Virus record (IMG/VR): IMGVR_UViG_2681813318_000003
Length of the DNA: 64,000 nucleotides
Source of the DNA: a virus
Taxonomy: Duplodnaviria > Heunggongvirae > Uroviricota > Caudoviricetes
Reading direction: 5' to 3' (one strand)
The notes beneath the pieces are model-generated. The model was not told the origin of the DNA, ran no database searches, and was given only the letters and a program-made list of their open reading frames with translations. Positions 45,241 through 45,630 of the stretch are shown here, one piece after another (the stretch's first letter is position 1; each line of letters starts with the position of its first letter). The translations under genes were made by a program, and so were the position numbers.

Positions 45241-45630
45241 TGCTGGCTAACCATACCAGCCGGGCTACGTCGCCGCTTTTTAACCCAGTATAAACGACAT
45301 AATTGAACAAAATGACGTAACAGGATGGGCGGTCAGTGGCTAAGAATCCGGGAGTCATATGGAGTTGAAAATATACCGACCGCCCATTCTGTTACTTCAT
45401 CGGAGGGAACACTCATGTTCCCTCCTGCGTTCTGCAATCACACTCGCTCAGTGTGTCCCATTTCGGTAACGAGGCTGGAAACTGACCTCGCTGGTGTTTG
45501 GCTTATTAGGCTACTGCCAGATAGACTTCTTCGTTTGCACTTGTATTTAAGTTCAAACAGTCGCGTCTCAACGAAAACAAAGTCATCTTATACATAAAAG
45601 ATAAGTAAGTAAATACTTATCACTATGTTT

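What the first reader, a model, noticed from the sequence alone, without database searches (positions are those of the whole stretch)
45250..45600. Structured non-coding stretch upstream of the tRNA cluster
This stretch carries several strong local inverted repeats (GGGCGGTC...GACCGCCC, GGAGGGAAC..GTTCCCTCC, CACACT..AGTGTG); the only track ORF across it, 45325..45597 (+), starts with a structured, biased sequence and is probably not coding. As it lies just upstream of the tRNA genes in the transcription direction, it could be a leader or a small RNA.
Basis: seen in the sequence. Interest (0 to 1): 0.4.

Follow-up and report, generated by a model that had tools for sequence, protein, structure and literature searches.

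The report
Phage RNA mimicking and targeting tmRNA
The structured stretch is an unannotated small RNA gene on the minus strand that combines a copy of the "tag-coding" half of the bacterial ribosome-rescue RNA (tmRNA) with a 5' arm complementary to the host's own tmRNA, so the phage probably blocks or re-programs the host's ribosome-rescue tagging system.

Summary
All three inverted repeats exist, both strands fold far better than shuffles, and the plus-strand ORF 45325-45597 is not conserved.

The stretch is a minus-strand RNA gene, core 45578-45402, co-oriented with the tRNAs. The window is an SSU5-like phage-plasmid.

The RNA carries a tmRNA-like coding module. It has an A-rich resume context, a GCA resume codon and a 10-codon frame (ANEEVYLAVA, two stops). 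A helix-5-like stem and two hairpins follow; covariation supports the first as a pseudoknot. It has no tRNA-like domain.

Its 5' end (45578-45555) is antisense to E. coli tmRNA nt 82-104, the resume codon and first codons. It is the best such match among 42,648 segments of the window.

Homologues occur in SSU5-like plasmids (including Y. pestis pMT1), Felix O1-like phages, HK620-type lambdoid prophages and Klebsiella phage Carvaje. None is annotated.

Best explanation: the RNA docks on host tmRNA, masks its resume codon and offers its own tag frame. The main rival is a pure antisense inhibitor. I found no description of such an RNA, but my literature search was limited. The mechanism is inferred, not shown.

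The parts
45585..45613 (-). Promoter-like element: -35 TTTACT (45613-45608), 17-nt spacer, -10 TAAGAT (45590-45585). The predicted start is at about 45579-45577.
   Evidence: Read from the sequence. It matches only 8 of 12 consensus positions, so the consensus scan did not report it. Equivalent hexamers lie at the same distance from GTTTTCG in Felix-type (TTGACA-17-TATAGT), L023-type (TTGACA-17-TAGATT) and L015 (TTTACC-17-TATAGT). Inferred, not mapped.
45555..45578 (-). 5' antisense arm against host tmRNA. Block 1, GUUUUCGUUG (45578-45569), pairs with E. coli tmRNA nt 95-104. Block 2, GCGACUGUUU (45564-45555), pairs with nt 82-91, which includes U85, A86 and the first two bases of the GCA resume codon.
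   Evidence: E. coli ssrA sequence. RNAduplex gives -26.3 kcal/mol with the host against -13.6 with the RNA's own coding region. Top-ranked of 42,648 window segments. The helices are retained in RNAcofold of the two full RNAs. GTTTTCG is found upstream of the tag in 126 of 127 copies.
45539..45554 (-). A-rich single-stranded linker GAACUUAAAUACAAGU, which ends in the resume context.
   Evidence: The -6..-1 context is A[U/C]AA[A/C/G][U/A] in all 126 loci. A at -4 is invariant; E. coli has A86 at that position.
45503..45538 (-). tmRNA-like tag reading frame: GCA AAC GAA GAA GUC UAU CUG GCA GUA GCC (ANEEVYLAVA, 45538-45509) followed by UAA UAA (45508-45503).
   Evidence: Alignment A1. Tag variants are AN[DE]xx[YF]LAVA, with mostly third-position or conservative changes. 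In 95 of 126 loci no ATG/GTG/TTG lies between the upstream in-frame stop and GCA. ARAGORN at an 80% threshold reads the same tags in relatives. The only Rfam matches in the RNA core are to tmRNA families, below threshold. 82 of 83 nhmmer hits of the phage profile land on real tmRNA resume sites.
45491..45520 (-). Helix-5-like element, CUGG...CCAG enclosing UAGCC/(A)GCCA, with the stop codons in or next to the apical loop.
   Evidence: The outer 4 pairs never vary, so they are uninformative. The inner helix is 88.5% paired, and it is weaker in the window copy.
45456..45490 (-). Pseudoknot a: hairpin CGAGG/CCUCG (45490-45470), with loop UUCCA (45480-45476) pairing to UGGGA (45460-45456).
   Evidence: Three stem pairs and three tertiary pairs change on both sides (UA/CG, GC/AU; CCGA:UCGG, CCAG:CUGG, CCAA:UUGG).
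45439..45455 (-). In lambdoid and Felix types its loop forms a second pseudoknot with a downstream GGGC; the window type has a small UGC/GCA hairpin there instead.
   Evidence: 100% paired, with 2 pairs changed on both sides. A loop insertion CCCUGA is matched by a downstream insertion UCAGGG in L092, L020 and L042.
45402..45425 (-). This is the 3' end of the core shared by all phage types.
   Evidence: Many alternative stem sequences stay complementary, and the apical insert varies from 4 to 93 nt.
45305..45400 (-). It may be a terminator or a processing site.
   Evidence: stems conserved, loop variable, with both-strand changes in L015 and L003. The terminator scan did not report it because the loop is 37 nt. 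Its role is inferred.
44199..44852 (-). tRNA-Asn, tRNA-Tyr, tRNA-Thr and tRNA-Ser genes downstream on the same strand.
   Evidence: Across the family, 222 flanking tRNAs are on the same strand as the element and none is opposite.

Best explanation
A phage-plasmid gene makes a small minus-strand RNA. The core runs from about 45578 to 45402; with the long hairpin it runs to about 45305.

**What is shown**
- The RNA has the anatomy of the mRNA-like half of tmRNA: resume context, GCA resume codon, a 10-codon tag frame ending in two stops, a helix-5-like stem and downstream hairpins. Covariation supports the first as a pseudoknot.
- It has no tRNA-like domain, so it cannot be aminoacylated or enter a ribosome on its own.
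- Its 5' 24 nt are complementary to the single-stranded start of the host tmRNA coding region, nt 82-104.

**What is inferred**
- The arm docks on host tmRNA and buries the host's resume codon and its upstream determinants (U85, A86) in a duplex.
- Because the duplex is antiparallel, the phage linker, resume codon and tag frame emerge beside host pseudoknot 1. That is where the host's own frame normally begins.
- The host tmRNA-SmpB complex would then rescue stalled ribosomes but resume on the phage frame. It would add (A)ANEEVYLAVA instead of (A)ANDENYALAA.
- In effect the phage supplies a parasitic 'coding piece', and the host molecule becomes a two-piece tmRNA.
- At the least, docking should block normal tagging.
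For: **The tag frame behaves like a translated frame**
- It is conserved as AN[DE]xx[YF]LAVA, with synonymous or conservative changes (TAT/TAC, TTC/TTT, CTG/CTA, GCA/GCC/GCT).
- These same changes would be non-synonymous, and one would create a stop, in the overlapping xUG frame.
- 95 of 126 loci have no in-frame start codon. A at -4 is invariant, as A86 is in E. coli.

**Similarity to tmRNA**
- Within the RNA core, tmRNA families give the only Rfam matches, though all are below threshold.
- A profile of the phage coding region hits real tmRNA resume sites in 82 of 83 matches.

**RNA structure**
- 92.7% of cells are paired, against 32-42% when partners are slid.
- The covariation score is 0.211 against 0.113 for shuffles (0 of 500 reach it).
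- Eight pairs change on both sides.

**The arm**
- GTTTTCG is found upstream of the tag in 126 of 127 copies. GUUUUCGU is the exact complement of tmRNA A97-C104, and GCGAC of G87-C91.
- The arm pairs with the host at -23 to -32 kcal/mol, against -7 to -16 with the RNA's own coding region, in all 41 representatives.
- 42 of 43 distinct arms choose the same tmRNA site. Arm variants are wobble-compatible transitions: G.U or A-U at U85, and C-G or U.G at G87 and G96.
- Different lineages extend the pairing with different sequences. The window type uses CUGUUU and the Felix type CUAUUUU. Lambdoid types use UUUGCGG(G)CUUUUU against the 3' strand of pseudoknot 1, with local-alignment z up to 9.6.
- The arm ranks first of 42,648 segments in the window (-26.3 kcal/mol; next -20.2; mean -7.1, sd 2.8) and first in 8 of 9 other loci.
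- It persists in full-length RNAcofold in 7 of 10 representatives.

**Target and precedent**
- The 25-nt target is exact in at least 120 gammaproteobacterial species, including the host genera Enterobacter, Citrobacter and Yersinia.
- Synthetic oligonucleotides complementary to tmRNA suppress release from stalled ribosomes in vitro (PMC3384345).
- Natural two-piece tmRNAs show that a coding piece held only by base pairing can work (established knowledge, Keiler et al. 2000).
Against: - There is no experimental evidence that the RNA is made, binds tmRNA or is translated.
- One Y. pestis RNA-seq study lists no sRNA at the pMT1 copy.
- In the window type the arm is two blocks of 10 bp separated by an internal loop. 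A strict sequence alignment recovers only the 8-mer, with z = 0.7.
- RNAduplex energy against the whole GC-rich tmRNA does not discriminate. Other 30-mers of the RNA reach -20 to -29 kcal/mol at structured sites.
- Three of ten representatives lose the arm helix in the cofold minimum.
- The host target never varies, so true intermolecular covariation cannot be tested.
- No case is known in which a ribosome resumes on a frame carried by a second RNA that is paired to the coding region of an intact tmRNA.
- The spacing from the duplex to the resume codon is 15-22 nt, against about 11 nt from pseudoknot 1 in E. coli.
- The benefit to the phage is not established.
Confidence: 0.45

Rival explanations
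1. Pure antisense inhibitor or sponge of host tmRNA. The arm pairs with the resume region and blocks tagging, or directs RNase III or RNase E cleavage of tmRNA. The tmRNA-like remainder only stabilises the RNA or binds the same proteins (S1, SmpB, RNase R). The phage tag is never translated.
For: All the arm evidence applies equally. Synthetic anti-tmRNA oligonucleotides at this kind of site work in vitro. A mycobacteriophage RNA with only the tRNA-like domain is thought to inhibit tmRNA (PMC4131195; PMC11915505). Phage-encoded anti-sRNAs in lambdoid late leaders are an established class (my knowledge: Tree et al. 2014).
Against: It does not explain why the 10-codon frame, its stop codons, the invariant A at -4 and the Y/F residue are kept with synonymous variation across very different phages. 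Loss of trans-translation is harmful to some phages (lambda-immP22, Mu; my knowledge), so blocking ribosome rescue has no obvious benefit.
Confidence: 0.3
2. A coding piece that works with some other acceptor partner, such as a phage tRNA-like RNA or an adjacent tRNA. Or a structured processing or leader element of the tRNA operon, in which the complementarity to tmRNA only reflects origin by inverted duplication of a captured ssrA fragment.
For: The element sits in tRNA islands and is always co-oriented with them. Some relatives carry a T-arm-like GGGUUCGAGUCCC inside hairpin modules (Carvaje, L041). Hairpin modules flank the core in lambdoid phages.
Against: No acceptor partner for GUUUUCG was found in the window. 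49 of 127 loci have no tRNA within the flanks searched. The window copy has only a 4-nt loop where the T-arm-like insert sits in others. The arm's partner within the same RNA changes without compensation, while the arm itself stays fixed and stays complementary to the host.
Confidence: 0.12
3. A decaying, non-functional remnant of a host ssrA fragment picked up by a phage.
For: Phages often integrate at ssrA and can capture flanking DNA (established knowledge).
Against: The element is conserved at about 76-80% identity in unrelated phage families. It shows compensatory changes, has its own promoters and keeps a constrained frame. It occurs in virulent Felix O1-like phages. blastn finds no match to host ssrA.
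Confidence: 0.05
4. The plus-strand ORF 45325-45597 encodes a 90-aa protein.
For: The ORF exists in the window.
Against: It is broken into different frames in every more distant relative tested. The longest open frame is 60 aa in the 99%-identical Cyrano copy.
Confidence: 0.01

Closest known systems
tmRNA (SsrA), standard one-piece form (Rfam tmRNA families)
   Same: A-rich context with A at -4, and a GCA resume codon. A 10-codon tag resembling ANDENYALAA. Stop codons at the top of a helix-5-like stem. Hairpins downstream of the frame, at least one of them an H-type pseudoknot.
   Different: No tRNA-like domain (no acceptor stem, T-arm or CCA end). No pseudoknot 1. About 175 nt rather than about 360. 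A 5' arm antisense to tmRNA itself. Encoded by phages and plasmids.
Coding piece of two-piece (permuted) tmRNAs of Alpha- and Betaproteobacteria and cyanobacteria (RF01850, RF04321 and relatives)
   Same: The tag frame lies on a separate RNA that is joined to the aminoacylated part only by base pairing. RF01850 and RF04321 give the best, sub-threshold Rfam matches.
   Different: Natural coding pieces carry the 5' acceptor strand and pair with an acceptor piece made from the same gene. Here the partner would be the complete host tmRNA, and the pairing is to that partner's own coding region.
Mycobacteriophage DS6A RNA with only the tRNA-like domain (PMC4131195, PMC11915505)
   Same: A phage carries only one half of a tmRNA and is thought to interfere with host trans-translation.
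   Different: DS6A has the opposite half (tRNA-like domain, no frame) and no antisense arm. It is proposed to act by titrating SmpB.
Phage-encoded anti-sRNAs and late-leader sRNAs of lambdoid prophages (AgvB, AsxR, StxS; from my own knowledge, not tested here)
   Same: Small RNAs encoded between Q/pR' and the lysis genes of lambdoid prophages that act by pairing with host RNAs. The HK620-type copies sit exactly there.
   Different: The target is tmRNA rather than an Hfq-dependent sRNA. The RNA also carries a constrained reading frame and pseudoknots.
Synthetic anti-ssrA / anti-tmRNA oligonucleotides used in ribosome display and cell-free translation (PMC3384345)
   Same: They are complementary to tmRNA and suppress tmRNA-mediated release. 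From my memory, they target the tag-coding region.
   Different: They are man-made DNA oligonucleotides and offer no replacement frame.

Membership tests
tmRNA (one-piece) | tRNA-like domain: 7-bp acceptor stem with G3.U70, T-arm, 3' CCA | tested here: not met
   ARAGORN at default settings finds no tmRNA in the window or in any of 127 regions. Rfam at gathering threshold finds only tRNAs in the window. At an 80% threshold ARAGORN borrows neighbouring tRNAs or terminator hairpins as 'domains'. The window copy has a 4-nt loop where some relatives have inserts.
tmRNA (one-piece) | Tag reading frame with no start codon, beginning at a GCA resume codon after an A-rich context and ending in stop codons | tested here: met
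tmRNA (one-piece) | Pseudoknot 1 directly upstream of the resume codon | tested here: not met
   The upstream segment is the antisense arm plus a 16-nt linker. No conserved pseudoknot was found there.
tmRNA (one-piece) | Helix 5 and downstream pseudoknots | tested here: met
   helix-5-like stem, pseudoknot a with covariation, hairpin b with covariation. In the window type the second pseudoknot is replaced by a small hairpin.
tmRNA (one-piece) | Charging by alanyl-tRNA synthetase and binding of SmpB | not testable with these tools
   Biochemical properties.
Two-piece (permuted) tmRNA | An acceptor piece encoded next to the coding piece, and a coding piece that starts with the 5' acceptor strand | tested here: not met
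   No T-arm plus CGAAAAC-NCCA partner exists in the window. Rfam permuted-tmRNA matches are far below threshold: 21.7 and 12.3 bits against 47.
Trans-acting antisense RNA / phage anti-sRNA | Extended, conserved complementarity to a host RNA at an accessible site | tested here: met
   That tmRNA nt 79-107 is single-stranded comes from established knowledge and was not tested here.
Trans-acting antisense RNA / phage anti-sRNA | Own promoter and terminator; the RNA is detected in cells | tested here: inconclusive
   Promoter-like hexamers sit at a fixed distance in four contexts, but the window's own copy matches only 8 of 12 positions. There is no canonical terminator and I found no expression data.
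Protein-coding gene (plus-strand ORF) | Reading frame conserved in relatives | tested here: not met

The most novel reading that the evidence does not exclude
A widespread family of phage RNAs hijacks bacterial ribosome rescue. The RNA base-pairs with the host's tmRNA, silences the host tag frame and is itself decoded by trans-translation. Stalled-ribosome products then receive a phage-specified peptide tag. Its place among phage tRNA genes also suggests a 'spare part' role, in which it patches host tmRNA whose coding loop has been cut by a defence nuclease.
Probability: 0.4. Interest if true: 0.95.

Novelty: new variant of a known kind. Interest (0 to 1): 0.85.

Why it matters
tmRNA-SmpB is nearly universal in bacteria, and it has been treated as a self-contained, host-encoded machine. 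An RNA carried by phages and plasmids that targets it would be new: it holds a replacement tag frame and an arm that pairs with the host molecule.

If the docking model is right, it would be the first natural antisense RNA against tmRNA. It would also be the first case of a mobile element re-coding the degradation tag.

The element is not rare.
- It is in about 5% of complete E. coli genomes as the SSU5-type copy (258 of 5,426).
- A search with the HK620-type copy places it in lambdoid prophages as well, with 210 chromosomal matches.
- It is also in Klebsiella, Enterobacter and Salmonella plasmids, in Y. pestis pMT1, and in Felix O1-like phages.

It is annotated nowhere. The hypothesis can be tested directly by mass spectrometry for the predicted tag and by compensatory mutagenesis of the arm and its target.

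Tried and rejected
- **Known RNA family.** Rfam gave only sub-threshold tmRNA matches, both with permissive filters and at gathering threshold.
- **Complete or permuted tmRNA.** ARAGORN at default settings found nothing. Relaxed thresholds recover the tags, but the 'tRNA domains' they report are spurious.
- **A separate acceptor RNA pairing with GUUUUCG.** CGAAAAC occurs at the chance rate, 13 observed against 11.9 expected. No site has a T-loop or an NCCA end.
- **Conventional translation of the tag frame or of the overlapping xUG-CAA-ACG frame.** No start codon is conserved. The observed substitutions would be non-synonymous, and one would create a stop, in the other frame.
- **An intramolecular helix between the 5' end and the start of the tag as the reason for the invariant GUUUUCGU.** The partner changes (GAA GAA, GAU GAG, GAC AAU) without compensation.
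- **A second docking site on tmRNA.** The sliding RNAduplex scan gave no consistent site. It also showed that raw duplex energy against the whole tmRNA is not discriminating.
- **Covariation between arm and host target.** This cannot be tested because the 25-nt target is invariant across hosts.
- **Expression evidence.** A Y. pestis RNA-seq supplement lists no sRNA at the pMT1 copy.
- **Literature.** Searches for phage tmRNA-like RNAs, tmRNA mimics and anti-tmRNA RNAs found only the DS6A-type RNA and synthetic oligonucleotides. One search ('YLAVA') was uninformative.
- **Degron quality of the ...LAVA end.** The screen I read reports that ...LVA is a strong ClpXP degron but has no data for ...AVA.

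Full report
**Context**

The window is an SSU5-like phage-plasmid of E. coli. The 778-bp gap 44853-45630 is 98-99.5% identical to Escherichia phages Cyrano and CMS-2020a and to many E. coli plasmids. It is about 78-80% identical to Salmonella phage SSU5 and to Klebsiella, Enterobacter, Cronobacter and Yersinia pestis pMT1-type plasmids.

The four tRNA genes (Asn, Tyr, Thr, Ser; 44852-44199) and the flanking genes, including a DNA ligase, are all on the minus strand. The finding therefore lies upstream of the tRNAs in their direction of transcription, and the minus strand is the strand to read.

**Observation**

- 45312-45337 / 45375-45400: 26-nt arms, 88% complementary.
- 45402-45411 / 45416-45425: a perfect 10-bp hairpin.
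- CACACT/AGTGTG at 45439-45455.

The stretch 45225-45630 folds far better than shuffles on both strands, with z = -5.3 and -6.0.

The plus-strand ORF 45325-45597 is not conserved. Its parts fall in different frames in SSU5, pJN2-26, L013 and L015, and the longest open frame is 60 aa even in Cyrano.

**The lead**

A distant BLAST showed that part of the gap, about 45436-45590, matches non-coding DNA at about 76% identity in unrelated phages.
- In Felix O1-like phages it lies inside the tRNA cluster.
- In HK620 and HK633 it lies between pR'/qut and the late terminator tQ.
- In Klebsiella phage Carvaje it lies upstream of tRNA-Ser.

The match is always in the orientation that puts the RNA on the tRNA strand.

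Aligning these copies on the minus strand exposed a conserved frame...AAAUACAAGU GCA AAC GAA GAA GUC UAU CUG GCA GUA GCC UAA UAA. This reads ANEEVYLAVA. It closely resembles the E. coli tmRNA tag frame, GCA AAC GAC GAA AAC UAC GCU UUA GCA GCU UAA UAA, which reads ANDENYALAA (verified).

**Family and coding constraint**

A pattern scan of viral contigs returned at least 120 further loci, which fall into 41 clusters at 94% identity.

All encode AN[DE]xx[YF]LAVA. Variation is mostly at third positions or conservative: TAT/TAC, TTC/TTT, CTG/CTA, GCA/GCC/GCT, GAT/GAC. Codons 9-10 and the first stop were fixed by the search pattern, so only codons 1-8 are unbiased.

In 95 of 126 loci no ATG, GTG or TTG lies between the upstream in-frame stop and GCA. 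The -6..-1 context is A[U/C]AA[A/C/G][U/A], and A at -4 is invariant, the position that A86 holds in E. coli.

The overlapping xUG frame is disfavoured by the same substitutions. This pattern suggests a frame that is decoded, and decoded without a normal start, as tmRNA frames are.

**Independent support for the tmRNA resemblance**
- The only Rfam matches in the RNA core are to tmRNA families, all below threshold: beta_tmRNA at E = 0.01 and permuted tmRNA at E = 0.09-1.4.
- ARAGORN at an 80% threshold reports the same tags in SSU5, Mijalis, HK620 and Carvaje.
- An nhmmer profile of the phage coding region was searched against 885 kb of gammaproteobacterial DNA. It put 82 of its 83 matches on real tmRNA resume sites in the sense orientation, although each match is weak, about 7 bits.

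**Structure**

The reading frame is followed by four elements:
- a helix-5-like stem with the stops at its top;
- a hairpin whose loop pairs downstream (pseudoknot a);
- a second hairpin, which is a second pseudoknot in lambdoid and Felix types;
- a terminal helix with a variable apical insert of 4-93 nt.

On alignment A2, 92.7% of cells are paired, against 32-42% when partners are slid by 1-3 columns. The covariation score is 0.211 against 0.113 for shuffles (0 of 500 reach it). Eight pairs change on both sides. The terminal helix shows many alternative stem sequences that stay complementary. A loop insertion CCCUGA is matched by UCAGGG downstream.

**What is missing**

There is no tRNA-like domain.
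- ARAGORN at default settings finds no tmRNA in any locus.
- Rfam at gathering threshold finds only tRNAs in the window.
- No acceptor partner for the 5' end exists in the window.

The RNA therefore fails the defining test for tmRNA and for two-piece tmRNA.

**The 5' arm**

The RNA starts with GUUUUCG. GTTTTCG is found upstream of the tag in 126 of 127 copies, and GUUUUCGU is invariant in alignment A1.

Promoter-like hexamers lie at a fixed distance upstream in four unrelated contexts.
- Window: TTTACT-17-TAAGAT.
- Felix type: TTGACA-17-TATAGT.
- L023 type: TTGACA-17-TAGATT.
- L015: TTTACC-17-TATAGT.

The window's own copy is weak, matching 8 of 12 consensus positions.

GUUUUCGU is the exact complement of tmRNA A97-C104, which are tag codons 3-5. 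The near-invariant GCGAC is the complement of G87-C91, which run from -3 to +2 of the resume codon.

In the window, GUUUUCGUUG (45578-45569) pairs with nt 95-104, and GCGACUGUUU (45564-45555) pairs with nt 82-91.

Other lineages extend the pairing with different sequences.
- The Felix type uses GCGUCUAUUUU against nt 81-91.
- L015 uses GCGAUUAUUUU.
- Lambdoid types add UUUGCGG(G)CUUUUU against nt 68-80, the 3' strand of pseudoknot 1.

The arm pairs with the host at -23 to -32 kcal/mol, against -7 to -16 with its own coding region, in all 41 representatives. 42 of 43 distinct arms pick the same site, and arm variants are wobble-compatible transitions.

As an unbiased test, every 30-mer of the 64-kb window on both strands (n = 42,648) was paired with tmRNA nt 79-108. 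The arm ranks first at -26.3 kcal/mol; the next independent site reaches -20.2, the mean is -7.1 and the sd is 2.8. The arm is also first in 8 of 9 other loci from different phage types.

Full-length RNAcofold keeps the arm helices in 7 of 10 representatives.

The 25-nt target is exact in at least 120 gammaproteobacterial species, including the host genera Enterobacter, Citrobacter and Yersinia. No host-side covariation can therefore be expected.

**Caveats on the arm**
- For the window type, a strict sequence alignment recovers only the 8-mer, with z = 0.7.
- Duplex energy against the whole GC-rich tmRNA does not discriminate.

The case rests on three things. The first is the colinear, family-wide pattern. 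The second is the rank tests against the accessible target. The third is the contrast between an invariant arm and a partner within the same RNA that changes without compensation.

**Mechanism**

Shown:
- a conserved, structured minus-strand RNA;
- a tmRNA-like coding module without a tRNA-like domain;
- a 5' arm complementary to the host tmRNA resume region.

Inferred: the RNA docks on host tmRNA, masks U85, A86 and the resume codon, and presents its own linker, resume codon and tag frame. Because the duplex is antiparallel, the phage frame emerges next to host pseudoknot 1, where the host frame normally starts. Stalled ribosomes would then be rescued but tagged with the phage peptide.

Natural two-piece tmRNAs show that a coding piece held only by pairing can function (established knowledge). 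Synthetic anti-tmRNA oligonucleotides show that pairing with tmRNA blocks its action in vitro (PMC3384345).

The main rival is a pure antisense inhibitor. It explains the arm but not the constrained frame.

Whether the ...LAVA end is a degron is unknown. The screen I read reports that ...LVA is a strong ClpXP degron.

**Comparison with what is known**

Surveys of tmRNA genes report phage copies only in mycobacteriophages and Bacillus phage G. [quoted passage not shown] The RNA here is the complementary half, with an added antisense arm.

My searches of the open-access library found no description of such an RNA. That library is incomplete.

NCBI's annotation pipeline annotates nothing at the element. 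The SSU5-type copy is in 258 of 5,426 complete E. coli genomes. A search with the HK620-type copy found matches in 400 genomes; 210 were chromosomal, and the rest were mostly weaker hits to the SSU5-type plasmids. In one E. coli chromosome inspected, the chromosomal copy again lies between the Q antiterminator and the holin gene.

I rate it a new variant of a known kind: a tmRNA-derived coding piece that works in trans on, or against, the host tmRNA. The mechanism is unproven.

**Rest of the gap**

Downstream of the core, the SSU5-type gap holds several further features. I did not resolve their roles.
- The long hairpin 45400-45312, followed by a short U-run.
- A conserved block with the hairpin GGCUGG...CCAGC (45261-45242).
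- A second long hairpin, 45240-45221 / 45138-45119.
- A conserved 16-nt block at about 45060-45045.

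Noticed in passing
window 45119-45138 / 45221-45240: A second long inverted repeat (20-nt arms, 95% complementary, 82 nt apart) lies downstream of the RNA in the same gap. It is conserved in SSU5-type relatives, with changes on both arms in L003 and L001. It is exactly deleted in one relative (L093), as if lost by recombination between the arms.
   Followed up: partly
window about 45045-45060 (minus strand AAUGAUUCCAUACAUC), compared with 46055-46070: A 16-nt block conserved in all SSU5-type relatives repeats the start (AUG AUU CCA UAC AUC, MIPYI) of the 50-aa minus-strand ORF 45918-46070. The frame that follows it in the gap is not conserved: it is 6 codons long in SSU5. 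It may be a duplicated translation-initiation or regulatory site.
   Followed up: partly
L005 (HK620) 1743-2330; L006 (Carvaje); L041, L039, L027 upstream regions: In lambdoid and Carvaje-type phages the core is flanked by hairpin 'modules' of the form CAGGUAAGAGCAUU...insert...AGUGCUCUUUCCG, with variable inserts. In Carvaje and L041 the insert contains a perfect T-arm-like GGGUUCGAGUCCC. These may be tRNA-derived processing signals.
   Followed up: partly
L005 (HK620) 2001-2110; L248 (E. coli CFSAN027343) 3001-3277: In lambdoid prophages the element sits in the roughly 0.65-1.1-kb non-coding late leader. In HK620 this is between Q/pR'/qut and tQ; in the E. coli prophage it is between Q and the holin gene. 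It would therefore be part of the short pR' transcript, the position occupied by the small 6S RNA in lambda.
   Followed up: partly
window 44286-44605: A 320-bp non-coding gap lies between tRNA-Ser and tRNA-Thr inside the tRNA cluster. It gave only chance-level Rfam matches (C/D-box snoRNA models). It is absent in Cyrano, where the tRNAs are adjacent. I did not examine it further.
   Followed up: no
window 42682-44019 (+): A 445-aa plus-strand ORF lies next to the tRNA cluster in an otherwise minus-strand block. Cyrano has different genes at this position (an integrase and a glutaredoxin nearby), so this looks like a variable cargo site.
   Followed up: no
window 45631-45921 (-): The gene just upstream of the RNA is annotated 'C-type natriuretic protein' in SSU5 and many plasmids. 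That name is implausible for a 96-aa phage protein with a hydrophobic N-terminus, and it is probably a propagated mis-annotation.
   Followed up: no
L128-L247 (genome-contig scan): The 25-nt tmRNA segment AAAUAGUCGCAAACGACGAAAACUA is identical in at least 120 species of Enterobacterales, Vibrionales, Aeromonadales, Alteromonadales and others. A few tiny contigs labelled as unrelated phyla (Streptomyces, Flavihumibacter, Siminovitchia) also carry it and look like contamination.
   Followed up: no
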